From NCBI GenBank assembly GCA_016201185.1, contig JACQDG010000156.1, positions 1-39,174 of the forward strand: a stretch of 39,174 nt of DNA, read 5' to 3'. Numbering within the stretch: position 1 is the first letter of the stretch; every line of letters starts with the position of its first letter. The translations under genes were made by a program, and so were the position numbers. Below are positions 447 to 23,009 of the stretch, piece by piece. The stretch is from Acidobacteriota bacterium. GTDB taxonomy: Bacteria > Acidobacteriota > Terriglobia > Bryobacterales > JACQDG01. The notes under the pieces are model-generated. The model did no database searches and had not been told where the DNA came from. It saw only the letters and a list, made by a program, of their open reading frames with translations.

Positions 447-1430
447 ATGCAACTCGGCATGGTCGGCCTTGGGAGAATGGGGGCCAATATGGTGCGCCGC
501 TTGATGGCAGGGAAGCACCAGTGCGTGGTGTACGATCTCAGCGCGGATAGTGTGAAGCAATTGGCCAGCGAGGGGGCGACCGGCACGACCACGCTGGAGG
601 AGCTCGTACGCAGCCTGAACAAACCACGGGCGGCGTGGGTGATGGTCCCGGCCGGGGATCCGACTGAGAGAACCGTCATGTCGCTGGCCGCGAAAATGGA
701 GCCGGGCGACATCATCATTGACGGCGGCAACTCCTACTTCAAAGACGATGTTCGGCGGGCCAAAGCGCTCCAGCCGAAGGGCATCCAATACGTGGATGTC
801 GGCACCAGCGGCGGTATCTGGGGAGTCGAGCGAGGCTACTGCATGATGATCGGCGGGGAGCCGGCGACGATCCGCCGCCTTGAGCCTATTTTCAATACCC
901 TCGCGCCCGGCCGCGGGGACACCCCTCGCACGCCGGGACGAGAAAAAATGGGCGGCACCGCCGAGGAGGGATACCTGCGCTGTGGCCCGTCCGGCGCGGG
1001 CCATTTCGTGAAGATGGTTCACAACGGCATCGAGTACGGATTGATGCAGGCTTATGCCGAGGGCTTCGACATTTTTCGGAACGCGAACTCCAAGGAGCTT
1101 CCCGAGGAGCACCGCTACGACCTCAATGTGACGGACATTGCCGAAGTCTGGAGGCGCGGCAGCGTGGTCGGCTCCTGGCTGCTCGACCTGACAGCCATGG
1201 CCCTGGCGGAGAATCCATCACTTTCCAGCTTTACCGGCTCCGTTCAGGATTCCGGCGAAGGGCGCTGGACCATCATGGCCGCAGTCGAGGAGGCGGTGCC
1301 GGCCGACGTGCTCTCCGCGTCGCTGTATACGCGTTTCCGGTCGCGGCAGGAGCACACCTTTGCGGAAAGGGTGCTTTCGGCGATGCGGTATAAGTTCGGC
1401 GGCCATGTCGAACGCGCAGCGGGCGGTTAG
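447..1430 (+). CDS. gnd: 6-phosphogluconate dehydrogenase, decarboxylating (short, about 300-aa type)
   Basis: N-terminal Rossmann motif [19 protein letters not shown]. Conserved blocks [20 protein letters not shown]...[24 protein letters not shown] and GSV..SWLLDL. An RBS-like GAAAGGAG lies upstream of the ATG. Confidence 0.85.
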
Positions 1431-1439
1431 GAGCGGCTT

Positions 1440-2165
1440 ATGGCAAGCGCAAAAAAGAGCAACGAACATCCCGATTCGAAGCGAACACTGGCAGTTGACA
1501 TAGGCGGCACAGGCATCAAGGTTATGGTTTTGGATGAAAACGGGAGACCGCTGACGGAGCGGTCCCGGGTGGGGACTCCCCAGCCGGCCACTCCGAGCGC
1601 GGTGCTCGGAGCTATCGTAGGCTTAGTCAAGAAGCAGGACGCCTTCAGCCGCGCCTCCGTCGGGTTTCCGGGCGTTGTCCGCAACGGCATCACGGAAACG
1701 GCGCCCAACCTGAATCCGGCGTGGAAGGGTTTTAATTTGGCTCAAACGCTCTCCAGGCGACTGGGCAAGCCGGTGAGAGTGGCCAATGACGCAGACGTGC
1801 AAGGGTTCGGAGCCATCACCGGGCGCGGCGTCGAACTGGTGGTTACCCTGGGAACCGGTCTCGGTTCGGCGCTTTTTGTCAATGGCCGGCTCGTACCCAA
1901 TTTGGAAGTAGCCCATCATGCCTTTCGAAAAGGCAAAACCTACGAGGAGAATCTGGGCAACGCCGCGTTGAAAAAGGCCGGGAAAAAGAAATGGAACAAG
2001 ACGCTGCGCCGGGCCATTTTAGAGCTCGAGCGCCTGTTTAACTACGACTTCCTGTTCATCGGCGGCGGCAATGCGAAGAAGATCGCTGGCGGGCTGCCGA
2101 CCAACGTCAAAGTTGTTTCGAACGTCGCCGGGCTGCTGGGCGGAATCGCTTTGTGGCGCGACTAG
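1440..2165 (+). CDS. ppgK: ROK-family glucokinase, polyphosphate-glucokinase-like
   Basis: [16 protein letters not shown] (ATPase phosphate-1 motif), [27 protein letters not shown] and FIGGGNAKK match the ROK/PPGK layout. It lacks the Zn-Cys motif of classic ROK repressors. It lies between gnd and zwf. Confidence 0.65.
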
Positions 2166-2221
2166 GCACCCGCCGGCCGCTGCAAAGGACAATCATTGGA
2201 AGGGAAGATACGCAAGGGGGA

Positions 2222-3718
2222 ATGGCAATGACAACCACAGAGGCCATCCGCGGAGCAGCGGAAAAGGCCACTCATTCTGGCGATCCGTGCGTGATAGTGA
2301 TCTTCGGCGCCGCGGGAGACCTGACCAAGCGCAAACTGATCCCGGCGCTTTACAACCTGGCGAAGGGCAATTTGCTCCCGAGGAACTTCGCGGTGGTTGG
2401 GCTCGCGCGTAACGAGATGAACACGGAGCAGTTTCGCGAGAGAATGAGCCAGGACATCCAGGAGTTTGCCACCGACCACTTCGATCACAACCTCTGGGAA
2501 GGGATGGTCAAGAGGCTCTACTACATGCCGGGGACGTTCGGGGATGCCAACGCGTACAAGAATCTACGAGCCCTTCTGGGCCGGGTCGATCAAGAGCAGG
2601 GCACACGCTGCAACTACCTCTTTTACCTGGCCACCAATCCCAGCTTCTTCGGTGAGATCATCCGCCAACTGGGGACCGTGGGTCTCGCGCATGAGGAGAA
2701 CGGCCAATGGCGGCGAGTGATCATTGAGAAACCGTTTGGGCGCGACCTCGACACCGCCCGGGTTCTCAACAAAGAGATCACGAAAACTCTCGAGGAGAGC
2801 CAGATCTACCGCATCGACCACTATCTGGGTAAGGAGACCGTGCAAAACATTATGGTCTTCCGTTTCGGCAACAGCATCTTCGAGCCGGTGTGGAACCGTC
2901 GTTATATCGACCACGTGCAGATCACCGTCGCGGAGACGGTGGGGGTGGAACAGCGCGGCCTCTACTACGAAGAGGCGGGCGCGCTCCGCGACATGGTGCC
3001 GAACCACATTTTCCAACTGATCGCTCTGATCGCCATGGAGCCCCCGATCTCCTTCGACGCGGAGGAGGTCCGCGACGAAAAAGCGAAGGTGCTGCGCGCC
3101 ATCCAGCCCCTGGACCCGGAAGATGTGCTGACCCGCGCGGTACGCGGGCAGTATGGCGAAGGCACCATCAACCGGGAGAGTGCGCCTGGTTACCGCAGGG
3201 AAGTGGACGTGGCGCCGGACTCGCCAACAGAGACATTTGTGGCGCTGAAGCTGTTGATCGACAACTGGCGCTGGGCGGATGTGCCGTTTTACCTGCGGAC
3301 CGGCAAGCGGATGCCCAAGCGCTTGACCGAGATCGCGATTCAGTACAAGCGCGCTCCGTTCCTGCTGTTTCGCAAGACGCCCGTCGAACACCTGACTCCG
3401 AACCTTCTGGTTTTGCAAATCCAGCCGGACGAAGGCATCAAGGTACGCTTCGGCGCAAAGGTGCCCGGGCCGACGGTGCAGATGGGAGCGGTGGATATGG
3501 ACTTTCGCTATGCCGATTACTTCGGCACCACGCCCAGCACCCGGCCGCCATGCAGCACCACGGCGCAGTTGTACAAGCTGTCCTCGATCCGGAGCGGCAC
3601 GCCGACCACCGCGACCAGGCGATGCTTCGCCGTCGCTGCAGCGACCTGGCGCAAGCCATCGAGCACCCTTATCTCGGCCCGCCAAGAAACCACGCTACAT
3701 TGCGGCCGCTGTGAATGA
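2222..3718 (+). CDS. zwf: Glucose-6-phosphate dehydrogenase with an aberrant 3' end, possibly a pseudogene
   Basis: Dinucleotide-binding motif [21 protein letters not shown], active-site block RIDHYLGKE and EKPFG are present. Recognisable G6PDH sequence runs to about ...[12 protein letters not shown](TTPST) near nt 3525-3540. The last roughly 58 codons ([15 protein letters not shown]...HCGRCE) have no G6PDH character, and the usual C-terminal (E/G)YERLL...GD.TLF.R...W...AG.WGP block is missing. I chose the ATG at 2222 after an AAGGGGG RBS; the track's GTG at 2153 overlaps the glucokinase gene. Confidence 0.8.
3520..3678 (-). pseudogene. Internal fragment (about 50 aa) of a glutamine-dependent NAD+ synthetase (NadE) CN-hydrolase domain, out of context
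   Basis: Minus-strand translation gives (AEIR)[49 protein letters not shown] followed by a stop. This closely parallels the NadE block as I recall it from the M. tuberculosis enzyme (LLDAVEDALLDLV...VLVVGAPLRHRHRIYNTAVVIHRGAVLGVVPKSYLP). There is no start codon, and the expected SYLPNYREFYE continuation is absent. Confidence 0.6.
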
Positions 3719-13607: not shown

Positions 13608-15008
13608 TCAGGGTTGAATGGAGGCCCGCCCCGCAGCCGATCCTGGTGAAGGTGATCGCCCGGCCTTGCTCAGAAGTTGCGGGACCGTGAACTTGCCTTT
13701 GACCGGTTTTTCCTGGGTCCAATCGTGGTACAGGTGGCACTCGAAACAGCGGGCCTCGGCGGCTTCAGCCCTGCCAGAGCGATGACATTGCTGGCAAGTG
13801 GCGATCCCTGGCAGCAGCACCTCAGAGGTTTTCTCGCTGGTGGCGGTCTGGACGTGACAGGCCGTGCAAGCCAGCATTTGATGGGCTTGGTGATCAAAGA
13901 TCGCATGGGGAAGCCAGCGCACCGTAATGGCGGACTTGGCTACATCGGGCAGCGACGCGCCGGCCGCAAAGCTGAGCGTGTGGCATTCTTTGCAGGTCTT
14001 CTCCCACAGGAGCAGTTCCGCGTCCTCCACGCGTTGCTCCACCCACTCGGCTGCATTCCGCGGCGCCGGTCGAGGGGGCCGGCCCGGTATCCTCGCTTCG
14101 GCCAAGCTCGGTTTGCGCAACTCTTCGGGATGGGCGGCGATGTACTCGGTAAACTTCTTGACCACGAAGTTGTAAACCACCTTCGGCTCTTTATGGGGTA
14201 CCGGCTCCCGAAATCGCTCGTCGAAATAAAGAGGATGGCAGGCGGAACAACTCTCGCTGTAATGGATGGTCGCCATATAGGCCCTCGCCGATACGCGGGC
14301 CGGTAAGGGCTGGGGCGGCGGCTCGGAAAGAGCCACTGTGGAAAGCTCCGCCTGGCCGAAGGGCCACGGCTCTTTCCCTCCCGGCGGCCGGTGGCAGTCG
14401 GCGCACTGCAACTGCACGGGTCCATGAGGGCCGCGCAGATCTGCTTTGAGGTGTATCTTGTGGTTCAACTTGATCGCGCCCGGGTCGCTGCGGCCGGGGC
14501 GCACCGAAGCGAACTCCGGATGCCCGCCGTTGAATTCCGTGATGTTGGCCGCGAAGCTCGGATGCCCGTCTTTGGTCTGCAAGCTGGCATGGCACCGGGT
14601 ACAAGCCCGGTCACTCGTTTGTGCCAATCGGACGGCGCCCACGTGTTCGACGTGACAGGACCCGCAAGAGGGGGTAAAGACCTGCTTTGCCTGATGGACG
14701 GGGCCGTCGTGGCAGGAGAGGCACGCTTGATCCGTCGCCTTCTTAAGGAAGATGTGGCTGACGTGACAAGCCGCGCAGTTGAGACCAAAGACAGCGTGCG
14801 AATGCGCCACGGGGCCGCCGGTGTAAACGTGCTGGTTGCCGGCGAGCCCCTCCCAACCCAGCCAAACGAGACCCAGGGCGACCAAACCTATGGAGAGAAT
14901 GCGGCGCCAGCGGGGCAGGGGATACAGGCGCTTGAAGTAATCCAGCTGGATGCGCTGTGCAAGTTTCTTTGTAGTCCGCGTTCTTCCCGGCACAGCGCTT
15001 CTCCTCAC
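13608..15008 (-). CDS. Membrane-anchored periplasmic decaheme cytochrome c with c3/c7-like modules
   Basis: N-terminal TM anchor ILSIGLVALGLVWLGW. Ten CXXCH motifs: CAACH, CLSCH, CGSCH, CTRCH, CADCH, CSACH, CKECH, CTACH, CQQCH and CFECH. FDHQAHQMLACTACH resembles the c7/c3 F.H..H....C..CH pattern. The GTG start directly abuts the upstream stop (TGAGTG). Confidence 0.85.
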   Translation of the reverse strand: MRRSAVPGRTRTTKKLAQRIQLDYFKRLYPLPRWRRILSIGLVALGLVWLGWEGLAGNQHVYTGGPVAHSHAVFGLNCAACHVSHIFLKKATDQACLSCHDGPVHQAKQVFTPSCGSCHVEHVGAVRLAQTSDRACTRCHASLQTKDGHPSFAANITEFNGGHPEFASVRPGRSDPGAIKLNHKIHLKADLRGPHGPVQLQCADCHRPPGGKEPWPFGQAELSTVALSEPPPQPLPARVSARAYMATIHYSESCSACHPLYFDERFREPVPHKEPKVVYNFVVKKFTEYIAAHPEELRKPSLAEARIPGRPPRPAPRNAAEWVEQRVEDAELLLWEKTCKECHTLSFAAGASLPDVAKSAITVRWLPHAIFDHQAHQMLACTACHVQTATSEKTSEVLLPGIATCQQCHRSGRAEAAEARCFECHLYHDWTQEKPVKGKFTVPQLLSKAGRSPSPGSAAGRASIQP

Positions 15009-15917
15009 TCAGTACCGCAGCGCGATCACTGCGTGAACTGACGCCAAGACCAAGAGGGCTATCGACAATGGGACATGGACCAGCAGCCACCCGTGCAGCC
15101 AATGGTAGAGACGAATCTGGCGGCTCAACTGGCGCTCTTCCTCCCAGATGTTTCCCAGGTTGTCCACCAGAGGGTGCAGTGGGACGGGCAGGAGCACCCG
15201 CAGCGACTGGAAAACTTCCTCGGCCCGTTGAGGAATGGCAAGCTCGGCGCCCGGCGCGCCCGGGTTCTCCAGGAACGGTCGCATCTTTTGGAGGTAGATT
15301 TCGCGAAAACGCTCCCTGGCTTCCTCCTCCACTTCGACCAGCGTGGCTACCGCCGCAGCCCCCTGCGCCGTGATTCGGTCCGAAACGGCTTGAGTTTGGC
15401 CCGCGCTGATCCCTAAAGGCCCGCAAACGGCGGCTGCCAGTTCGTCGGCTTCCCCTAGCAGTTGTTCGCGTACGTGCGGTATCTCTTCATAGATCGTTTC
15501 CATCGGCGCCTGCACAGTCATCATTTGAGGCAGATAATGCTGGAGCGCGGCGCCCAGCACCCCGCTGGCGATCACAATAAAGAACAGCACCATCAAGACG
15601 GTTGTCAAAGGTCCCCGAAAAGCGAAGCCGCTGTGGAACAGGATCAGAGGCAGGCTGACCAGTCCCAGCCAGAGATGACCCCTCATCCAGGTCTGGGCCC
15701 GGCCAATGCGCCAGACCGGTACTTTCTTGCGCGCTCCTAGCAAGCCGGCATACAACATCAATCCGTAGCCGATAATGCCGTAAGTGATCCCCAGCGTGCT
15801 GCCGCCGCTCGGTCCGCTCGGCGATCGCAGGACGTACGGTATGTAAATAGTGACGCCGGCGACCAGCAGGACCAGGGAGGCAATCATCCAGGGCCGGTGG
15901 GCTCCATCGATTCGCAT
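15009..15917 (-). CDS. Integral membrane protein (about 5 TM) with two H-x13-H pairs; putative di-heme b-type transmembrane electron carrier of unknown family
   Basis: Predicted TM helices at about aa 10-30, 42-62, 80-100, 104-127 and 273-300. H81-x13-H95 (HLWLGLVSLPLILFH) and H281-x13-H295 (HVPLSIALLVLASVH). A soluble helical insert of about 140 aa lies between TM4 and TM5. A GAGG RBS precedes the ATG, 9 nt after the upstream stop. Confidence 0.55.
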   Translation of the reverse strand: MRIDGAHRPWMIASLVLLVAGVTIYIPYVLRSPSGPSGGSTLGITYGIIGYGLMLYAGLLGARKKVPVWRIGRAQTWMRGHLWLGLVSLPLILFHSGFAFRGPLTTVLMVLFFIVIASGVLGAALQHYLPQMMTVQAPMETIYEEIPHVREQLLGEADELAAAVCGPLGISAGQTQAVSDRITAQGAAAVATLVEVEEEARERFREIYLQKMRPFLENPGAPGAELAIPQRAEEVFQSLRVLLPVPLHPLVDNLGNIWEEERQLSRQIRLYHWLHGWLLVHVPLSIALLVLASVHAVIALRY

Positions 15918-15926
15918 CGTACCTCG

Positions 15927-18089
15927 CTAGCGATCGGCAGACCTCCCCTGCGGCGCCCCCACAAGCCCGCTGAAGAACGTGTTGGGGTCCACCCGGTGAG
16001 CGGCATCGTGCGGGCAAGCGTACACGCAACTGGGTTCTACATGTTCCGTGCAAAGATCGCAGGAAGTAGCTTTTTGCTTGACAACAGCGACCTCTCGCTC
16101 CGGGGCAGCCGGATCCTTCGCATATACGGTGAAGGGGTGCATGTTGATGTTGCCGTACGGACAATTTTTGGCGCACAGGCCGCAGCCGATGCACCAGTCT
16201 TCGATAATTACCTCCAGAGAATTACGACGCCGGATAGAGCCCACCGGACAGCCCACCATACACAGAGGATCGCGACACTGCCGGCAGGAGGTGGCCACCA
16301 GATACTTGTCGAAGCGCACTCCTTCACGGATTAAGCGGGTTACGCCGTCGTGGGCGTCGGCGCAGGCGCGCACGCAGTTGTCACAGCGCGTGCACCGCTC
16401 CAGGTCGAGCACCAGCAAGCTTTGGGCCTCCATCAGGCCCTGGGCCAGAAACCGTTCGAGAGGGACGCTGGACGCGGCCGCGAGACGTTGTCGGTTTTGT
16501 TCCTCGCGCTCTTGGGCCACGGCTTCCAGACTACGCCGGACTTCGGGGAAGGCTAGCGTCATGCGGTGGAAATCTTCGCCATGGATACGGACCACCTCCA
16601 CGTGATCCAGCGCCGTGCAAGTGGCAGTGCGCCGACCCTCGCCTAGCAAACCCATCTCGCCGAAGTAGCCGCCGCGGCCCAGATAGGCCAGCACAAGCTC
16701 CCCTCCGGGGTGTATTTCGGAGACCTTTACAAAGCCGATGCGAACGAGATAGAAGCTGTCGGCTATGTCGCCCTGGCGGCAGATGACATCACCCTTGGAA
16801 TAACGCACCAGCTCCACCCTATCGCGCAGCGAATCGATGAAATCCTGGGTGAGCGTGGCGAATACAGGAACGCTGCGCAAATGGTCGTCGAGAGCGCGCC
16901 GCCGGTAGTTTTCCTCGATCTGCGCTTTGAGCGTCTTGTTCCTTTGCATGATGTCGAGGACGTTGCGCAGCATTTCTAGCATGGTGCAGTCGGTAGCAGC
17001 GCGAACGGTGGCGGAGCGCGGATACAGGCTCATGCAGGTCATTTCGCCGAACAGGTCGCCCGGACCAAGCTCGGCGACGGGATTTTCATAGGGCAGATCC
17101 ACCGGCGCATCAATCGGGATCATGCGGCGGTCCGCTTCTTCCGCGCGGCGATTCTCCCGCCGCCCGGCGAGACGGCTGGTGAGCTTGCTCAAGAAGCCCG
17201 TAGCGCCGCCCTCCGTCTTGACGTGGGCCAGGGGAGCGGAAAGGAACACCTGGGCCTTCCCCTGGAGGATATAGAATGCCGTGGAGCCGTACTCTCCTTC
17301 CCGGCAGACAATGTCTCCTTTCCGGAAGCGGCGAAGGACAATAGCGTTCTTATTCAGATCCAGGAAGGTCCCCGATACCTTCTGGAAGTAAGGCAATTGC
17401 AGCAACTCCTCCACGTTCACCGGCTCGCCTTGGGGCAAGACCGTCTTCACGACACTTTTGTTTGTCAGGGCGCCGGTGGGGCAGGAGACCATGCATTCCC
17501 CGCACGAAACGCAGGAAGAATAGCCCATGGGCTGGTTGTGATCGAAAGCGATGCCGGTCTGGTAACCTTTTCCCCTGCGGCCGAGCACGTCGTTGTGGCG
17601 GATTTCATCGCACCCGCGAATGCAACGATCGCAGAGGATGCAGGCCTCGTGGTCCACGGAGATCACAAAGGAGGTGTCATCCTGCCCGCGGGGCGAGAGG
17701 CGGCGGGCAAACCGCGGCTGGGTGACACCCTCCGTCCTGGCCAACATCTCGAGCTCGCAGTCGCCCGACTGTCGCTGGCGGGCGCAGGGGCTGGGATGGT
17801 CCGTCATCAGCAATTCGACCAGGGTACGGCGCACGTTTCTTACCTTTTCCGAGGTGGTGGAAATCACCATGCCGTTCTCCGCCAGTCGAATGCAAGAGGC
17901 GGCCAAAACACGGCCGCCTACATCCACCGCGCAAACGCGACAGACGCCCACCGGCGCTTCGTTCTGCTGGTGGCAAAGGGTGGGGATGGAGATGCCGTGG
18001 ATGCGGGCCGCATCGAAGATGGTAGTATCGGAAGGGACCGAAATCGGCCGGCCGTCGATGGTCAGTTGAACCTGGCTGTCCGAGCTCAT
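15927..18089 (-). CDS. Multidomain Fe-S protein: HoxU/NuoG-N-terminal-like [2Fe-2S] plus [4Fe-4S] module, two cyclic-nucleotide-binding domains, and a DmsB/HybA-like four-cluster ferredoxin
   Basis: N-terminus: LTIDGRPI...TLCH..(x)..CRVC..(x)..C ([2Fe-2S]), HPSPC...C, CILCDRCIRGC and CVSCGECMVSCP. cNMP domains: FRKGDIVCREGEYGSTAFYILQG...GPGDLFGEM...RSATVRA and YSKGDVICRQGDIADSFYLVRIG...GRGGYFGEMGLL...RTATCTA. C-terminus: CTRCDNCVRAC, CRQCRDPLCMVGCP, CIGCGLCAKNCP and CDLCTEHVEPSCVYACP. I chose the start at MSSDSQVQ, whose ATG overlaps the upstream TGA (ATGA at 18086..18089). No signal or Tat motif is present. Confidence 0.8.
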   Translation of the reverse strand: MSSDSQVQLTIDGRPISVPSDTTIFDAARIHGISIPTLCHQQNEAPVGVCRVCAVDVGGRVLAASCIRLAENGMVISTTSEKVRNVRRTLVELLMTDHPSPCARQRQSGDCELEMLARTEGVTQPRFARRLSPRGQDDTSFVISVDHEACILCDRCIRGCDEIRHNDVLGRRGKGYQTGIAFDHNQPMGYSSCVSCGECMVSCPTGALTNKSVVKTVLPQGEPVNVEELLQLPYFQKVSGTFLDLNKNAIVLRRFRKGDIVCREGEYGSTAFYILQGKAQVFLSAPLAHVKTEGGATGFLSKLTSRLAGRRENRRAEEADRRMIPIDAPVDLPYENPVAELGPGDLFGEMTCMSLYPRSATVRAATDCTMLEMLRNVLDIMQRNKTLKAQIEENYRRRALDDHLRSVPVFATLTQDFIDSLRDRVELVRYSKGDVICRQGDIADSFYLVRIGFVKVSEIHPGGELVLAYLGRGGYFGEMGLLGEGRRTATCTALDHVEVVRIHGEDFHRMTLAFPEVRRSLEAVAQEREEQNRQRLAAASSVPLERFLAQGLMEAQSLLVLDLERCTRCDNCVRACADAHDGVTRLIREGVRFDKYLVATSCRQCRDPLCMVGCPVGSIRRRNSLEVIIEDWCIGCGLCAKNCPYGNINMHPFTVYAKDPAAPEREVAVVKQKATSCDLCTEHVEPSCVYACPHDAAHRVDPNTFFSGLVGAPQGRSADR
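16557..17399 (-). other. Domain region: tandem cyclic-nucleotide-binding (CAP-effector-like) domains embedded between the Fe-S modules
   Basis: Two copies of the beta-roll signature (G.LFGEM / GYFGEMGLL followed by R[ST]ATV/C.A). The first copy carries an insertion of about 50 aa (FLSAPLAHVKTEGG...DLPYENP). Confidence 0.7.
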
Positions 18090-19765
18090 ACCAGCCTCTC
18101 TTCGCGCATGGGGCAGACCCTTTCGGGGCATTCCCGGCGGAGGATATGGGCCTCGACTTCTTTCCGGAAATGCTGCAGCACGGAAGTTATCGGTGCATGG
18201 GCGAATTGCCCCAGACCGCAAATGGAGGTCAGGCGCAGGGCGTCAGAGAGTTCATCCACCAACTGCAGATCAGCCGGTGAGCCTTTGCCTTGCGTCCAGC
18301 CGGTGAGGATGTCCACCAGTTTCTGGGAACCCATGCGGCAAGGTACGCACTTGCCGCAAGACTCGTTGCGGAAGAACTTCACTGCGTTCAAAGCCATGTC
18401 GAGCATACACCTGCCTTCGGCACAGACCACGATGGCACCCGAACCCAGCATGGAGCCGGCCGCGGCCATCGACTTGAAGTCGAGATGGACATCCACCAGG
18501 GAGGCCGGAAGATAGCCTGAAGACGGACCGGAAGGGGCAAAAGCCTTGAGTTGCTTGCCGTCGGGGGGACCGCCGGCGAGATTAAGAATCACCTCCGAGG
18601 CCGGCGTACCCATAGGGATTTCGAATACCCCCGGTTTACGCACATCGCCGCTGACGCCCACCATCTTCAAGCCGGCAGCTCCACCCTGTCCCTGGGTCTT
18701 ATACCATTCCACGCCGTTGGTCAGAATCTGAGGCACGTGGGCGAAGGTCTCGACGTTGTTGAGCACGGTCGGTTTGTTCCAGAGCCCATGGGTGACAGGG
18801 AAGGGCGGTTTGTTGCGGGGTTCGGCGCGCTTGCCTTCGATAGCTTCTAGCAAAGCGCTCTCCTCGCCGCAGATATAACCGCCCGGGCTGACGAAGATTT
18901 CCAGCTCGAAGGGGAGGTCAGACCCGAGCACCTGCAGCCCCAGGATGCCGTCTTGCTTGCATTTGTGAATCTCTTCGTCCAGGATCCTTTCCTGAACGCC
19001 GTACTCATGGCGAATGTAAAGGACACCCTTACGCGCCCCGGCCACCAACCCGGCGATGATCATCCCCTCGATGACGAGGTGGGGCAGGTGGTGCATGATG
19101 AAGCGGTCTTTGATGGTACCGGGCTCGCTCTCGTCAGCGTTGCACACGACGTACTTCTCCGTGCCCGGAGCTTTGCGAACGGCCTCCCACTTGACCCCCG
19201 TGGGAAAGCCAGCGCCTCCCATGCCGCTCAGTCCGCTGGCCTTTAAGGTCGCAATGACGCCGTCCCAGTCCCGGGTCTGGACCAGGCGCCGAAGTGCGCC
19301 GTAACGCGTGGCGCCCTTATAAGGGTCGGAAGCGAGATCCGTCCGCCTGTTTTCCACGGGCTGCTCCGGCAACTCACTGCCTCCCAGGGCGGCGAAGACC
19401 AGAGCCTCGGCCTGGGCCCCGGTGACCCCGCGGTAAATGTGGTCATTGACGGAAATAGCGGGGGCCCCGTCACATTGCCCCAAACAGGAGGTCTCGCGAA
19501 CAGAAACCTCGCTCTCGCCCAACGGCAGGAACCGCTGCTTGAGCTCGGCGCGCAACGGCTCGGCCCCTCTCAGGTGGCAAGACATGTCAGAGCAAACCCG
19601 CAGATTCACCTTGGCCGCAGGCGTCAGATAGAAATGAGGATAAAAGCTTGCCACGCCATGCAGGCGATAGAGGGGGATCTTGGTCTTCTTGGACAGCGCC
19701 TCCAAATGCTCGGCTGGCAGATAACCGTATTGACGCTGAATGGCCCTGAGTTCTTCGAAGATCAC
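18086..19765 (-). CDS. NuoE-NuoF fusion: NAD(P)H-binding FMN/Fe-S diaphorase subunit (HoxEF / NADH dehydrogenase 24-kDa plus 51-kDa type)
   Basis: NuoE-like N-terminus (GVASFYPHF...RVCSDMSCHLRG...CLGQCDGAPA). NuoF motifs GLSGMGGAGFPTGVKW, YVVCNADESEPGT.KDR, ICGEESALLEAIEGKR.EPR.KPPFP and the N3 cluster ESCGKCVPCRMG...CGLG. GTG start, with a possible TTG one codon upstream, after an AGGAG. Confidence 0.85.
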   Translation of the reverse strand: MIFEELRAIQRQYGYLPAEHLEALSKKTKIPLYRLHGVASFYPHFYLTPAAKVNLRVCSDMSCHLRGAEPLRAELKQRFLPLGESEVSVRETSCLGQCDGAPAISVNDHIYRGVTGAQAEALVFAALGGSELPEQPVENRRTDLASDPYKGATRYGALRRLVQTRDWDGVIATLKASGLSGMGGAGFPTGVKWEAVRKAPGTEKYVVCNADESEPGTIKDRFIMHHLPHLVIEGMIIAGLVAGARKGVLYIRHEYGVQERILDEEIHKCKQDGILGLQVLGSDLPFELEIFVSPGGYICGEESALLEAIEGKRAEPRNKPPFPVTHGLWNKPTVLNNVETFAHVPQILTNGVEWYKTQGQGGAAGLKMVGVSGDVRKPGVFEIPMGTPASEVILNLAGGPPDGKQLKAFAPSGPSSGYLPASLVDVHLDFKSMAAAGSMLGSGAIVVCAEGRCMLDMALNAVKFFRNESCGKCVPCRMGSQKLVDILTGWTQGKGSPADLQLVDELSDALRLTSICGLGQFAHAPITSVLQHFRKEVEAHILRRECPERVCPMREERLV

Positions 19766-20007: not shown

Positions 20008-21369
20008 ATGAGCCTGGTTCGCACCAGCTACATTTCACTTCTGGCGGTGTGGGCGGAAAGCGCCGTGGCTTGCCTGCTGATGGGGGGCGGGACTCTGCTT
20101 GCCGCTGAGGCCCCCCAAAGCAGCGCCTTGACATCGGAGGCCTCCAAGTTTACCGGGCCGGGTTCGTGCAGCTCCACCAGTTGCCATGGTGGCGTGCAGC
20201 CCCGGGCGGAAACCTCCGTTCGGCAAAATGAGTACAGCCTCTGGGTAGTGCGGGACAAACATGCCCACGCCTTTGCTGTGCTCTCGAATCCGGTTGGGAC
20301 ACGGATGGCTCGTATTCTGGGGCTGCCTCGGGCAGACACTGCTGAGAAGTGCCTGGCCTGTCACGCCCTGAATCCTCCTCCGGACCAGCGCGCCAAGACC
20401 TTCTCCGACCTCACCGACGGGGTAAGCTGTGAAGCCTGTCATGGGCCGGCGTCCAACTGGCTGGGCCCGCATACCACCCGCGGCTGGGCTTACGAGAAGT
20501 CGCTCCAAGCAGGCATGTACAATACCCGCGACCTGATCAAACGGAGCGAGAAGTGTCTCTCCTGCCATTTGGGCAATGAGGAAAAGTTTGTCGATCACGA
20601 GATGATTGCGGCCGGCCACCCCGACCTGTATTTCGAACTGGACTCCTTTTCGGCGGCGATGCCCCGGCATTGGAAAGAGCCGCTGGACAAGGATCCCTGG
20701 CTGGGGGTGCGAACGTTGGGCACGGGGCAGGCGGTGCAATTGCGGGAGCATCTGAGGCGCGTAGCCCGGCGGGCTCAGGGAAGCATCTGGCCGGAATTCT
20801 CCGAACTGCAATGCTTCGCCTGTCATCATGATTTGACGGCCGCGAAAGACAGTTGGAGGCAGGAACGTGGCTATCCGGGGCGGCGTCCGGGCGACCCGCC
20901 GTTCAATATGTCCCGCTATTCTATTTTCCGTCAGGTGGTTTACGAAGTGGACCGGCAGGAGGGCGGCCAGCTCGATTCCCAGCTCAACAAGCTGTTTGGC
21001 CTGATGAGTGAGCTCTCGGCCGACCGCAAGCAGGTCGTGGCTGCGGCCGAGAGTTCAGCCGAACTGGCTGACCGGCTGGCTCGCCGGATCGCCTCACTGC
21101 AATTCGACCAGGGGATGACCATGCGTTTGCTCAAAAGCATTTCCGGCGACGCTGACTACATCGCAGGGCAAGGTGAGCGGTCGGCCGAGCAGGCAGCCAT
21201 GGCGCTGGATTCTCTTTTCATCGCTTACATCCAGAGCGCGAAAATGGGAAACGAGCAGCAAGTCCGAGCGGCCATTAACTCCCTTTTCCAGGAACTGTCG
21301 AATCCTTCCGCCTATAATGCTTACACTTTCGCCCGTGAGGTGCATAAGTTGAATGCTTTGCTGCCGTAG
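20008..21369 (+). CDS. Secreted multiheme cytochrome c (cytochrome c554-family-like; 4 CXXCH plus 1 CX4CH) with a helical C-terminal domain of unknown function
   Basis: Signal peptide (LLAVWAESAVACLLMGGGTLLAAEA). Heme motifs CSSTSCH, CLACH, CEACH, CLSCH and CFACH. W..RDKHAHAF after the first motif resembles the c554-family layout. The last roughly 170 aa contain no Cys or heme motifs. Confidence 0.7.
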   Translation: MSLVRTSYISLLAVWAESAVACLLMGGGTLLAAEAPQSSALTSEASKFTGPGSCSSTSCHGGVQPRAETSVRQNEYSLWVVRDKHAHAFAVLSNPVGTRMARILGLPRADTAEKCLACHALNPPPDQRAKTFSDLTDGVSCEACHGPASNWLGPHTTRGWAYEKSLQAGMYNTRDLIKRSEKCLSCHLGNEEKFVDHEMIAAGHPDLYFELDSFSAAMPRHWKEPLDKDPWLGVRTLGTGQAVQLREHLRRVARRAQGSIWPEFSELQCFACHHDLTAAKDSWRQERGYPGRRPGDPPFNMSRYSIFRQVVYEVDRQEGGQLDSQLNKLFGLMSELSADRKQVVAAAESSAELADRLARRIASLQFDQGMTMRLLKSISGDADYIAGQGERSAEQAAMALDSLFIAYIQSAKMGNEQQVRAAINSLFQELSNPSAYNAYTFAREVHKLNALLP

Positions 21370-21386: not shown

Positions 21387-23009
21387 ATGCCCAGGGACCA
21401 TAACAAGTCGCGTTCCCGGAGGGCCATCCTGGCGATCCGTAACCTTATCATGCTGGTCTTGGTGGCGGCTGCCTCGCTAATCTGGGGGAACGGCCGCGGG
21501 GCCGACTCCGATCGCGCCATCCCGACCGTGCGCTTCCCACGCGTTCACCACGTCCCGCGAGCCCCCCACTTCAACAATTTCGACCCTCGCCCGATCCTGA
21601 CTGCCGGCGACGTGCAATCCGTTGTTCAACGCGCGGCCGAATCGCTGGATTCCACCGCCATGGTCATCGCCGTGACGGATCGCCAGGGCGACGTCCTGGC
21701 GCTATATCGGAAGCCTGGCGCCCCCCCAACGGCCGTGGGCAACTTCAGCATGATGGTTGACACCAACGAGCTGGCCGTTGCTTTAGCCCGTACGGCGTCG
21801 TTTTTCAGCAACAACCAGGCGCCCCTTTCCACGCGCACGGTTCGTTTCATCAGCGGCATTCATTTCCCTCCCGGGATTCCTTTCACCCCAAACGCGGCCC
21901 TCTACGGTATTGAGAATACCAACCGGGGCTGTCCGGTGAATGCCGATTTCATCCCGGGCCAGGAGGTTCCTCCCGCCCGTACCATCGACAGGACGCGGCC
22001 GGGGCTGGGAATCATTACCGGCAAAGCAGACCTGAACGACAGCGACAGCAACGCGGTGAATCCCGGAGGGGTCCCGCTGTTCAAGCAAGGGCAGTTGGTA
22101 GGCGGGGTCGGGGTTGCCGGCGTCTCTCCTAACCTGGTTGAATATGCCGCGTTTTCCGGCGCGGCCCGTGCGGGATTCGAGCCTTCGCCGGCGCCGCCCG
22201 AAGTGGTGATTATCGACGGTCTCGCCTTGCCTTTCGTCGATCAGAAAGCACAGCCTGCGGGAACAGGACCGGGGGCATTCGATGCCGCAAACTTCCTGAT
22301 CCCCCCGCGCGGCAGTCCCAAGCCGGCTCCGGAGGGCGACCTGGTAGCGCCCAAAGCCGGCCCCTTGGGTGGCCTGACGGCAGAAGAGGTCCGCCACATT
22401 ATTGATGCGGCAGTGGCAACAGCCGATCAGACACGGGGCGTGATCCGGCTGCCGCTGGGCTCGCGCGCTCGGATGGCGATAGCGGTCGCGGATCTGGACG
22501 GTACGATCCTGGCGTTGCACCGGATGCCGGATGCAACCATTTTCAGTATTGATGTGGCGGTGGCCAAGTCACGCAACGTGATTTACTTCAGCAGCGCGCA
22601 GCGCAGGCCGGAGGACCTCCCGGGCGTCCCCATGGGCACGGCGGTCAACAACAGGACCATCAGTTTCGGGGCGCAACCTCTCTTTCCGCCGGGCATTAAC
22701 TTCAGCCAGCCGGGGCCATTTTTTGATCTCTACAAATGGGATACGGCCAATCCTTGTACGCAAGGCTTTCAGGCTCCCAATTCCAACCAAAGCGGAATCG
22801 TATTTTTCCCGGGCAGTCTTCCGCTTTACAGGAATGCGGTGCTGGTGGGCGGGCTGGGCGTCAGCGGCGATGGAGTGGAACAGGACGACTTTGTCACCGC
22901 CGGCGCGGCGCAAGGCCTGGACGCTCCCGAGTCGATCCGGGCGGACCAGATCATAATCCGGGGAGTGCGACTCCCCTACCTGAAATTCCCTCGCAATCCG
23001 ACCCAATGA
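21387..23009 (+). CDS. Membrane-anchored or secreted protein with two tandem GlcG/HbpS-like (DUF336, heme-binding/degrading-like) domains
   Basis: N-terminal anchor AIRNLIMLVLVAAASLIW. Module 1: LTAGDVQSVVQRAAE...MVIAVTDRQGDVLALYR...GGVPLFKQGQLVGGVGVAGV. Module 2: LTAEEVRHIIDAAVA...IAVADLDGTILALHR...IDVAVAKSRN...GSLPLYRNAVLVGGLGVSGDGVEQDD. It starts 18 nt after the cytochrome stop. Confidence 0.6.
   Translation: MPRDHNKSRSRRAILAIRNLIMLVLVAAASLIWGNGRGADSDRAIPTVRFPRVHHVPRAPHFNNFDPRPILTAGDVQSVVQRAAESLDSTAMVIAVTDRQGDVLALYRKPGAPPTAVGNFSMMVDTNELAVALARTASFFSNNQAPLSTRTVRFISGIHFPPGIPFTPNAALYGIENTNRGCPVNADFIPGQEVPPARTIDRTRPGLGIITGKADLNDSDSNAVNPGGVPLFKQGQLVGGVGVAGVSPNLVEYAAFSGAARAGFEPSPAPPEVVIIDGLALPFVDQKAQPAGTGPGAFDAANFLIPPRGSPKPAPEGDLVAPKAGPLGGLTAEEVRHIIDAAVATADQTRGVIRLPLGSRARMAIAVADLDGTILALHRMPDATIFSIDVAVAKSRNVIYFSSAQRRPEDLPGVPMGTAVNNRTISFGAQPLFPPGINFSQPGPFFDLYKWDTANPCTQGFQAPNSNQSGIVFFPGSLPLYRNAVLVGGLGVSGDGVEQDDFVTAGAAQGLDAPESIRADQIIIRGVRLPYLKFPRNPTQ

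What the first reader, a model, noticed from the sequence alone, without database searches (positions are those of the whole stretch)
15009..15917. Uncharacterised 5-TM protein with two H-x13-H pairs, a cytochrome-b-like di-heme signature
Seen in sequence: H81-x13-H95 lies in TM3 (HLWLGLVSLPLILFH) and H281-x13-H295 lies in TM5 (HVPLSIALLVLASVH). A soluble helical insert of about 140 aa separates TM4 and TM5.

Established knowledge: paired His residues spaced 13-14 apart on two helices are the classic ligation pattern for two stacked b hemes spanning a membrane, as in cytochrome b of bc1/b6f.

Inference: this protein does not resemble NrfD, FdnI/HydC or NarI in layout. It may be a new family of transmembrane electron carrier between the cytoplasmic Fe-S protein and the periplasmic decaheme.
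Basis: partly seen in the sequence, partly recalled or inferred. Interest (0 to 1): 0.6.

Follow-up and report, generated by a model that had tools for sequence, protein, structure and literature searches.

The report
Two-haem membrane wire, ferric-reductase-like
This unannotated 302-residue membrane protein of a soil acidobacterium is most likely a distant, rearranged relative of ferric-reductase/NADPH-oxidase membrane domains that holds two stacked haems and passes electrons from an NADH-oxidising iron-sulfur module inside the cell to a ten-haem cytochrome outside the inner membrane; haem binding has not been tested.

Summary
The gene lies on the minus strand (15009-15917) and encodes 302 aa with five TM helices. 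H81-x13-H95 is in TM3 and H281-x13-H295 in TM5, with a ~140-aa helical insert between TM4 and TM5.

- **Conservation:** none of the four His is substituted in 270 homologues. Each follows an invariant Trp, giving W-x3-H-x13-H twice.
- **Topology:** charge distribution and natural fusions place the N-terminus and insert in the cytoplasm. TM3 and TM5 then run in parallel, giving one His pair per membrane face.
- **Family:** no Pfam or NCBIfam model reaches threshold, and Foldseek finds no solved fold. The sub-threshold hits are consistently Ferric_reduct, DUF4405 and Ni_hydr_CYTB. With the insert removed, the profile aligns colinearly with four-His ferric-reductase domains, His on His (E 1.2e-3, above controls).
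- **Context:** NuoEF, Fe-S/cNMP protein, this protein and a decahaem are syntenic in all loci whose contig extends far enough (71 of 80). In other Acidobacteriota the cNMP/4Fe-4S module is fused to this membrane domain.

Verdict: a probable di-haem b electron conduit and an unclassified branch of the ferric-reductase superfamily. It probably corresponds to "PtdF" of one preprint and is untested. This is a new variant of a known kind; interest 0.6.

The parts
15009..15917 (-). The finding: a 302-aa, five-TM protein with two W-x3-H-x13-H helices (TM3 with W77/H81/H95; TM5 with W277/H281/H295) and a cytoplasmic helical insert (~137-270). Proposed di-haem b transmembrane electron carrier.
15633..15689 (-). 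TM3 motif W77-x3-H81-x13-H95. H81 is the proposed ligand of the cytoplasmic-side haem and H95 of the periplasmic-side haem.
   Evidence: Invariant in 269/269 (His) and 268/269 (Trp) sequences covering it. Aligns with the first bis-His helix of four-His FRD proteins and with the DUF4405 bis-His helix.
15033..15089 (-). TM5 motif W277-x3-H281-x13-H295, providing the second ligand of each proposed haem.
   Evidence: Invariant in 254-255 sequences covering it. hhalign to the DUF4405 helix gives E 1.1e-3. Internal similarity to TM3 gives E 0.011.
15108..15509 (-). Cytoplasmic helical insert in the TM4-TM5 loop (residues ~137-270). Conserved ends are P-x-ETIYEQ after TM4 and RPFL ... ERRQL-x2-Q-x-RLH-x-WLH before TM5; the middle is variable. 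Proposed docking platform for the Fe-S subunit.
   Evidence: Conservation. Length varies from ~80 aa to more than 600 aa in homologues. Helical with pLDDT 66-97.
15927..18089 (-). Partner: Fe-S protein of ~720 aa. It has a HoxU/NuoG-N-terminal-like [2Fe-2S]+[4Fe-4S] part, cNMP-binding domains and a C-terminal 2x[4Fe-4S] ferredoxin domain. Proposed direct electron donor.
   Evidence: The homologous cNMP+Fer4 module is fused to the membrane domain in L156-L158.
18086..19765 (-). Partner: NuoE-NuoF fusion (FMN, NADH site, [2Fe-2S], [4Fe-4S]). Proposed electron entry point.
13608..15008 (-). Partner: decahaem cytochrome c (10 CXXCH) with an N-terminal membrane anchor. Proposed electron acceptor on the periplasmic face.
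   Evidence: The start codon abuts the stop codon of the finding.
20008..21369 (+). Divergently transcribed c554-like multihaem cytochrome, conserved next to the operon in most related loci. Probable periplasmic relay.

Best explanation
The protein is a transmembrane di-haem b cytochrome. It belongs to an unclassified, rearranged branch of the ferric-reductase-domain (FRD) / DUF4405 / cytochrome b561 superfamily.

Proposed structure:
- TM3 and TM5 run in parallel from the cytoplasm to the periplasm.
- H81 and H281 ligate one haem b near the cytoplasmic face. H95 and H295 ligate a second haem near the periplasmic face.
- The two His in each helix are 14 residues apart, which is about 21 A, and they lie on nearly the same helix face.

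Proposed electron path:
1. NADH is oxidised at the FMN of the NuoE-F fusion.
2. Electrons pass through the Fe-S chain of the HoxU-like/cNMP protein to its C-terminal 2x[4Fe-4S] domain.
3. That domain docks on the cytoplasmic face of this protein. The enlarged TM4-TM5 loop, equivalent to the D-loop of NADPH oxidases, probably forms the platform.
4. Electrons cross the membrane through the two haems.
5. They are handed to the membrane-anchored decahaem cytochrome c, then to periplasmic and outer-membrane cytochromes.

The route bypasses the quinone pool, as NADPH oxidases do. Electron export is favoured by both redox potential and membrane potential, so it would act as an electron sink rather than a coupling site.

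Shown here: the motifs, their invariance, the topology indicators, the remote homology, the synteny and the fusions. Inferred: haem binding, direction of flow, and which partners dock.
For: 1. Conservation. The four His are invariant, as are the preceding Trp residues, in 270 homologues. Small residues on the flanking helices are also invariant or nearly so (G43, G47, G119, G122), as expected where haems pack.

2. Topology. The positive-inside rule and natural fusions of a cytoplasmic cNMP+4Fe-4S module to the N-terminus of all five TM helices both give N-terminus in and C-terminus out. This puts the His pairs at matching depths.

3. Remote homology.
- Scanning 65 members separately against 24,736 Pfam models, the three most recurrent families are DUF4405 (39/65, best E 1.1e-3), Ferric_reduct (25/65, best 2.8e-4) and Ni_hydr_CYTB (14/65, best 2.6e-3).
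- A sister subfamily is linked to this family at HMM E 3e-45. It reaches Ferric_reduct 25.7 bits (E 1.3e-5), Ni_hydr_CYTB 25.5 bits and DUF4405 21.6 bits.
- With the insert excised, the profile aligns colinearly over 164 columns with four-His Ferric_reduct proteins. All four His fall on their four His, with E 1.2e-3 and score 28.3, against 13.5 reversed and a maximum of 21.7 in 30 column shuffles.
- TM5 and TM3 each align with the DUF4405 bis-His helix (E 1.1e-3 and 2.3e-2).
- DUF4405 has been shown experimentally to bind haem b (PMC11334425).

4. Fold. AlphaFold2 gives a confident single fold (pLDDT 92.9, pTM 0.84).

5. Context.
- The order NuoEF, Fe-S/cNMP, this gene, decahaem is kept in all 71 of 80 loci long enough to show it. 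The other nine are cut short by contig ends and keep every gene that fits. At least 582 stretches in species-representative genomes encode a relative.
- Variant clusters replace NuoEF with a Pyr_redox flavoprotein but keep the sandwich of Fe-S/cNMP, membrane protein and multihaem cytochrome.
Against: - No haem-binding experiment exists for this family.
- The homology signals are all below the curated Pfam thresholds, and P0001 itself scores only 9.8 bits on DUF4405.
- The reverse HMM search finds no other cytochrome b in the genome. The MsrQ-type profile comparison is not above controls.
- Foldseek found no solved structure resembling the full model (best E 0.05, TM 0.33, TorS sensor) or TM1-4 alone (best E 1.6; cytochrome b561 at E 5, TM 0.36-0.39).
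- The helix-face conservation test is not significant once the His are left out.
- One long-insert homologue sits next to the cNMP/Fer4 protein with no cytochrome c nearby, so the acceptor is not always a multihaem cytochrome.
Confidence: 0.7

Rival explanations
1. Quinone-coupled di-haem anchor. The two haems connect the Fe-S subunit (or the decahaem) to a quinone site. The complex would then be an NADH:menaquinone or a quinol:cytochrome c oxidoreductase, like the five-TM di-haem anchor of type-B fumarate reductase/succinate dehydrogenase, or like CbcL/CymA-type quinol oxidases. It would not be a direct NADH-to-cytochrome wire.
For: - The three-part layout (flavoprotein, Fe-S protein, five-TM di-haem anchor) mirrors type-B quinol:fumarate reductase (established knowledge).
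- The weak similarity includes Ni_hydr_CYTB, which from memory is the model covering quinone-reactive FdnI/HyaC-type subunits.
- One homologue has no cytochrome c gene nearby.
Against: - No quinone-site motif or family match was found.
- The decahaem gene is translationally coupled to this gene.
- A multihaem cytochrome follows the membrane protein in all 80 genome loci and in the fused and Pyr_redox variants.
- The nearest relatives by profile (FRD, DUF4405) are quinone-independent carriers.
Confidence: 0.15
2. The protein binds no haem. It would be a membrane anchor or scaffold (or a metal-binding or signalling subunit) that tethers the Fe-S/cNMP protein to the membrane, with the conserved His serving a structural or metal-site role.
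For: - No Pfam/NCBIfam family is reached at threshold and there is no structural match.
- The long helical cytoplasmic bundle weakly resembles sensor four-helix bundles (TorS, McpS).
- The partner carries cNMP-binding domains, which hints at regulation.
Against: - Four invariant His arranged as two W-x3-H-x13-H motifs on parallel helices is the FRD haem-ligand pattern, and they align His-on-His with FRD and DUF4405.
- Without a redox cofactor in the membrane, no route would link the cytoplasmic NADH/Fe-S module to the periplasmic cytochromes that always accompany it.
Confidence: 0.08
3. Di-haem b protein with a different acceptor or direction. It would act like a true ferric reductase/NADPH oxidase and reduce a small periplasmic acceptor (Fe(III) chelate, O2), with the decahaem incidental. 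Alternatively it would carry electrons inward from cytochromes to NAD+.
For: - Relatives in the FRD superfamily reduce Fe(III) chelates or O2 (established knowledge).
- A homologue lacks a neighbouring cytochrome.
Against: - The tight coupling with the decahaem argues against an incidental decahaem.
- Inward flow to NAD+ is uphill in redox potential and opposed by the membrane potential (inference).
Confidence: 0.07

Closest known systems
Ferric-reductase domain (FRD) superfamily: NOX/DUOX, fungal Fre, bacterial four-His FRD proteins, MsrQ/YedZ (Pfam PF01794)
   Same: - Two bis-His haem sites formed by TM3 and TM5, both running inside to outside, with H-x13-H spacing.
- Colinear profile alignment with all four His matched and recurrent sub-threshold PF01794 hits.
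- The same logic of moving electrons from a cytoplasmic NAD(P)H-linked module straight across the membrane without quinone.
   Different: - Five TM helices instead of six (no TM6).
- The TM4-TM5 loop is expanded to ~140 aa, and to more than 600 aa in some homologues.
- The donor is a separate or N-terminally fused Fe-S/cNMP protein rather than a C-terminal FAD/NADPH domain.
- The presumed acceptor is a multihaem cytochrome c rather than O2, Fe(III) chelate or MsrP.
- Scores stay below the Pfam gathering cut-off.
DUF4405 (PF14358) and FezC cytochromes (Huang et al., mSystems 2024, PMC11334425)
   Same: - The W-x3-H-x13-H helix aligns with both TM3 and TM5.
- DUF4405 is the most frequent weak Pfam hit (39/65).
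- DUF4405 was shown to bind haem b and was proposed as a membrane electron carrier.
   Different: - The acidobacterial DUF4405 proteins examined here have a single bis-His helix and would need to dimerise, whereas this protein carries both helices in one chain.
- DUF4405 clusters are associated with flavinylation (ApbE), not with NuoEF/Fe-S and multihaem cytochromes.
PtdF of the ptdABCDEFG cluster (bioRxiv 10.1101/2023.11.21.568154)
   Same: [quoted passage not shown] This matches the core seen here and the Pyr_redox variant found in L159/L160.
   Different: - Ptd was defined in marine Alpha-/Gammaproteobacteria, Nitrospirales and Planctomycetes, from gene neighbourhoods only.
- Here the NAD(P)H module is NuoEF plus a HoxU-like domain.
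- The preprint gives no analysis of haem ligands or topology.
Cytochrome b of bc1/b6f complexes
   Same: Two H-x13-H pairs on two parallel helices ligate two haems stacked across the membrane, with conserved glycines on the neighbouring helices.
   Different: - No detectable sequence or fold relationship was found.
- There are no Qo/Qi sites.
- The helix count and partners differ.
Tmc/Hmc/DsrMKJOP-type complexes of sulfate reducers (NarI/HdrE-type cytochrome b)
   Same: A membrane cytochrome b links a cytoplasmic Fe-S protein to a periplasmic multihaem cytochrome c (established knowledge).
   Different: - Those use NarI-family subunits with different His spacing and CCG-type Fe-S proteins.
- There is no NADH module.
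- No sequence similarity was found here.

Membership tests
Pfam Ferric_reduct (PF01794) | HMM score at or above the gathering cut-off (28 bits) | tested here: not met
   P0001 gives no hit even at E<=10. 25 of 65 relatives give sub-threshold hits, best E 2.8e-4. The sister subfamily reaches at most 25.7 bits.
Pfam Ferric_reduct (PF01794) | Two His pairs (H-x12/13-H) on TM3 and TM5, both helices running inside to outside | tested here: met
   A colinear hhalign places the four His on the four His of L115/L119/L120, above reversed and shuffled controls.
Pfam Ferric_reduct (PF01794) | Six-TM core with a short cytoplasmic TM4-TM5 loop | tested here: not met
   Five TM helices and a ~140-aa insert in that loop.
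Pfam DUF4405 (PF14358) | HMM score at or above 26.7 bits | tested here: not met
   9.8 bits, E 1.5. 16.6 bits in the whole-genome search. 39 of 65 relatives hit weakly.
Pfam DUF4405 (PF14358) | Bis-His helix with the conserved His as the most conserved residues | tested here: met
   hhalign of TM5 gives E 1.1e-3 and of TM3 E 2.3e-2, His on His. Real score 27.0 against 18.9 reversed and 17.2 shuffled maximum.
Pfam Ni_hydr_CYTB (PF01292; CybB-type and, from memory, FdnI/HyaC-type) | HMM score at or above 30.1 bits | tested here: not met
   No hit for P0001. 14 of 65 relatives hit weakly. The sister subfamily reaches at most 25.5 bits, on the last helix only.
Cytochrome b (bc1/b6f) | Sequence or fold homology to the eight-TM cytochrome b | tested here: not met
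   No Pfam, PDB sequence or Foldseek match. The family HMM does not hit the genome's own cytochrome b.
NarI/HdrE/DsrM cytochrome b | His ligands on TM2 and TM5 with unequal spacing; family HMM match | tested here: not met
   The His are on TM3 and TM5 with equal x13 spacing. No family match.
PtdF (ptd cluster) | Position between a cNMP/4Fe-4S protein and a decahaem cytochrome | tested here: met
   Description of the Ptd cluster.
PtdF (ptd cluster) | Sequence homology to the published PtdF | not testable with these tools
   The supplements held contain no Ptd entries. The only indirect evidence is the sister subfamily in Pyr_redox-type clusters, which is homologous (E 3e-45).
Any b-type cytochrome | Bound haem b (spectra, pyridine haemochrome) | not testable with these tools
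   This requires an experiment.

The most novel reading that the evidence does not exclude
The family is the membrane core of a widespread, quinone-independent NAD(P)H-to-extracellular electron-export system that is gated by cyclic nucleotides and has not been characterised. It would be a bacterial counterpart of NADPH oxidases in which an Fe-S/cNMP module replaces the flavin domain and a multihaem cytochrome replaces O2. It would be a major route of anaerobic redox balancing in soil and peat Acidobacteriota.
Probability: 0.45. Interest if true: 0.8.

Novelty: new variant of a known kind. Interest (0 to 1): 0.6.

Why it matters
Acidobacteriota are among the most abundant soil and peat bacteria, and how they dispose of electrons without oxygen is an open question.

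A recent peat preprint describes their outer-membrane cytochrome/porin machinery. Its text never mentions NADH, NuoF, 'cytochrome b' or 'inner membrane', so the inner-membrane link is not addressed there.

This protein is the only candidate in the operon that could carry electrons across the inner membrane. If it is a di-haem wire fed directly by an NADH/Fe-S module, these organisms could export electrons without using quinones. That would change how their energy budgets, and the electron flow to humics or iron in peat, are modelled.

For protein science, the family shows the ferric-reductase fold adapted to an Fe-S donor and a cytochrome c acceptor. It also gives a defined, testable family: at least 2,390 clusters at 50% identity, none annotated.

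Tried and rejected
**Searches that found nothing useful**
- Pfam and NCBIfam scans of P0001 gave nothing at threshold.
- PDB sequence searches with the protein and with the family profile gave only chance helical matches.
- Foldseek of the full AlphaFold model against the PDB gave best hits to TorS/McpS sensor bundles and ABC-transporter TM domains (E >= 0.05, TM <= 0.35). I judged these generic helical-bundle matches.
- Foldseek of a separate TM1-4 model (pLDDT 92.7) gave nothing below E 1.6. Cytochrome b561 appeared at E ~5, which is not evidence.
- A reverse search of the family HMM over all ORFs of the genome found no paralogue and no other cytochrome b.
- Pfam scans of ten long-insert homologues found no domain in the inserts, which are low-complexity repeats.

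**Tests that were not significant**
- hhalign against an MsrQ-type (three-His) profile gave E 0.06-0.07, not above shuffled controls. I rejected it as evidence.
- The helix-face conservation test without the His gave p 0.24 and 0.09. It is consistent with the model but not significant.

**Data handling and access problems**
- A first four-His FRD profile was contaminated by a wrongly extracted frame (L092). I repeated it without that sequence.
- My first extraction of loci ignored strand and frame and gave nonsense. It was corrected.
- To test presence outside Acidobacteriota I used the genome labelled Verrucomicrobiia as a centre. The sampling returned the same genomes as for Acidobacteriota, so no conclusion on other phyla follows.
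- The supplements of the ptd preprint hold no Ptd sequences.
- Model coordinates are not exposed, so His-His geometry could not be measured.
Full report
**1. The observation**

The ORF lies on the minus strand at 15009..15917 and encodes 302 aa.
- It has a GAGGT ribosome-binding site 4 nt before the ATG.
- Its TGA stop is followed directly by the GTG start of the next gene.
- His residues sit at 7, 81, 95, 127, 148, 248, 272, 275, 281 and 295.

Hydropathy and the AlphaFold2 secondary structure agree on five membrane helices: 5-31, 41-65, 74-96, 103-136, and the end of a long helix 245-301. An all-helical insert lies between TM4 and TM5.

The pattern is rare. Of 22,981 six-frame ORFs in the same genome, this is the only one with two W-x3-H-x13-H motifs.

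**2. Conservation**

The family is large and unannotated.
- More than 3,589 proteins match among the 8,000 scored candidates in the 90% clustered collection. Every source name among the 120 listed is 'hypothetical protein', and none carries a Pfam domain.
- 2,390 clusters at 50% identity match with E <= 1e-3.
- In 65 representatives at 35-55% identity the invariant columns are G43, W77, H81, H95, G119, P130 and H281. H295 is missing only in one truncated sequence.
- In 270 sequences aligned to the family HMM, none of the four His is ever replaced. W77 and W277 are equally constant, so each helix carries W-x3-H-x13-H.
- The other six His of P0001 vary, except H275 (249 of 255).

**3. Topology**

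Mean K+R counts across the family are 2.1 (N-terminus), 6.2 (TM2-TM3 loop) and 4.1 (before TM5). They are 0.7, 0.7 and 0.6 for the TM1-TM2 loop, the TM3-TM4 loop and the C-terminus. This gives N-terminus in, C-terminus out, and a cytoplasmic insert.

Natural gene fusions support this independently. In other Acidobacteriota, a module of two cNMP-binding domains plus 4Fe-4S clusters is fused to the N-terminus of all five helices, and both motifs are retained. The module has no signal peptide and is necessarily cytoplasmic. Examples are L156, L157 and L158.

TM3 and TM5 therefore both run inside to outside. H81/H281 share the cytoplasmic level and H95/H295 the periplasmic level. Fourteen residues correspond to about 21 A and a rotation of -40 degrees, so the two His of one helix face the same side (inference from helix geometry).

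The His lie 45 and 15 degrees from the conserved helix faces computed without them. This is consistent with inward-facing His but not significant.

**4. Family relationship**

No curated model is reached. The weak signals, however, all point in one direction.
- Scanning the 65 members separately, the three most frequent families out of 24,736 are DUF4405 (39 members), Ferric_reduct (25) and Ni_hydr_CYTB (14). From memory, these belong to one Pfam clan of two-haem cytochromes.
- A sister subfamily from Thermoanaerobaculia-type genomes is tied to this family at HMM E 3e-45 and BLASTP E 4e-24, with His on His. It reaches Ferric_reduct 25.7 bits over TM2-TM4 (profile positions 2-87 of 121), Ni_hydr_CYTB 25.5 bits over the last helix, and DUF4405 21.6 bits. 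Some sources call these proteins 'cytochrome b561' or 'ferric reductase like'.
- With the insert removed, the family profile aligns colinearly over 164 columns with three acidobacterial Ferric_reduct proteins that carry four His. H81, H95, H281 and H295 fall on their four His. The E-value is 1.2e-3 and the score 28.3, against 13.5 for the reversed template and at most 21.7 in 30 column shuffles.
- TM5 and TM3 each align with the bis-His helix of acidobacterial DUF4405 proteins (E 1.1e-3 and 2.3e-2). They also align with each other (E 0.011), which suggests an internal repeat.
- DUF4405 has been purified and shown to bind haem b (PMC11334425).

The comparison with three-His MsrQ proteins did not exceed controls.

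The structure searches were uninformative, although both models are confident (pLDDT 92.9 and 92.7). Neither the whole chain nor TM1-4 resembles a solved structure.

I therefore place the protein in the ferric-reductase/DUF4405 superfamily as a separate branch without a family model. It differs by having five helices, no TM6, and a greatly enlarged TM4-TM5 loop.

**5. Context**

The operon on the minus strand contains, in order:
1. a NuoE-NuoF fusion;
2. a ~720-aa protein with a HoxU/NuoG-N-terminal-like part, cNMP-binding domains and a C-terminal 2x[4Fe-4S] domain;
3. this protein;
4. a decahaem cytochrome c with an N-terminal anchor.

The four genes occur in this order in all 71 of the 80 related genome loci whose contig extends far enough. 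In the other nine, cut short by contig ends, every gene that fits is present in order. At least 582 stretches in the species-representative genome collection encode a relative. A c554-like multihaem cytochrome is usually transcribed divergently.

More distant members keep the same arrangement with different parts:
- a Pyr_redox flavoprotein fused to cNMP and Fer4 domains, then the membrane protein, then an FHA-decahaem (L159, L160);
- the cNMP/Fer4 module fused to the membrane domain, followed by an FHA-multihaem cytochrome (L156-L158);
- a long-insert form beside the cNMP/Fer4 protein alone (L153);
- forms beside c554-like and LVIVD multihaem cytochromes (L151, L152).

About 19% of sampled Acidobacteriota genomes (58 of 301) carry a member.

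**6. Mechanism**

The most likely role is a two-haem wire. NADH is oxidised at the NuoF FMN. Electrons run through the Fe-S chain to the C-terminal ferredoxin domain, which docks on the cytoplasmic face. By analogy with the D-loop of NADPH oxidases, the enlarged TM4-TM5 loop is the probable platform. Its juxtamembrane ends (P-x-ETIYEQ; ERRQL...RLH-x-WLH) are conserved while its middle is variable.

The electrons then pass through haem H81/H281 and haem H95/H295 to the decahaem. The steps are inferred; the parts list is shown.

Rivals:
- a quinone-coupled anchor, as in type-B fumarate reductase (0.15);
- a haem-free scaffold (0.08);
- a different acceptor or direction (0.07).

**7. Prior knowledge and novelty**

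- One preprint named a ptdABCDEFG cluster in marine bacteria. It listed PtdE (cNMP, two 4Fe-4S), PtdF ('transmembrane ferric reductase-like') and PtdG (decahaem) and stated that the function is unknown. No other paper in the library mentions it.
- A 2026 peat preprint covers the outer-membrane part. Its text never mentions NADH, NuoF, 'cytochrome b' or 'inner membrane'.
- New here are the haem-ligand analysis, the topology, the fusions, the colinear FRD alignment and the NuoEF/HoxU variant.
- The kind of component, a di-haem b transmembrane carrier of the FRD type, is known.

I rate it a new variant of a known kind, with interest 0.6.

**8. Limits**

- There is no experimental evidence of haem binding.
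- All homology scores are below curated cut-offs.
- Model coordinates could not be read.
- PtdF sequences could not be obtained.

Noticed in passing
L156:4192-6933 (-), L157:1522-4725 (+), L158:1900-4350 (+): Natural fusions of 816-1067 aa: two cNMP-binding domains plus 4Fe-4S clusters, followed by all five TM helices of this family with both W-x3-H-x13-H motifs. Roughly 20 of the 58 positive Acidobacteriota genomes show such 800-1070-aa open frames.
   Followed up: partly
L156:869-4108 (-): A single 1079-aa protein combines an N-terminal FHA domain, eight CXXCH haem motifs, a 4Fe-4S domain and a C-terminal Pyr_redox flavoprotein domain. It would have to cross the membrane twice.
   Followed up: no
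homologues P0155 (824 aa) and P0133 (629 aa), within the TM4-TM5 loop: The insert is expanded by about ten tandem copies of a short amphipathic motif (LSPLELMKQQAAAKKAA or LSAADKIAMMRAAKA), separated by Ala/Pro-rich linkers. No Pfam domain is found and the function is unknown.
   Followed up: partly
L159:2547-4922 (+) and L160:3046-5427 (+): In a sister cluster the NAD(P)H module is a Pyr_redox flavoprotein fused to two cNMP-binding domains and 4Fe-4S clusters (791 aa). It is followed by the membrane protein and an FHA-domain decahaem. This matches the published ptdC/E-F-G description.
   Followed up: partly
sister-subfamily proteins P0276, P0304, P0317 and others: JGI names many of these 'predicted membrane channel-forming protein YqfA (hemolysin III family)'. 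This looks like a misannotation, since other members are named cytochrome b561 or ferric reductase-like.
   Followed up: no
own genome, contig C1:1079-3019 (locus L084): A DUF4405-like membrane domain with an H-x13-H helix is fused to a large multihaem cytochrome c (647+ aa). This is a second, different b-type/c-type link in the same organism.
   Followed up: no
L069 (NCBI label Verrucomicrobiia), L032 (Candidatus Binatus), L060 (Betaproteobacteria): These records carry near-identical operons. Sampling the 'phylum' around the L069 genome returned the same genomes as for Acidobacteriota, so that NCBI label is probably wrong. L032 and L060 were not checked in this way.
   Followed up: partly
window 447-3718 (+): Genes for a 6-phosphogluconate dehydrogenase-like protein, a ROK-family sugar kinase and glucose-6-phosphate dehydrogenase lie just upstream of the cytochrome cluster. 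These are NAD(P)H-producing enzymes, and a functional link is speculative.
   Followed up: no
window 21387-23009 (+): A 540-aa protein with an HbpS-like (haem-degrading/GlcG) domain follows the divergent c554-like cytochrome.
   Followed up: no
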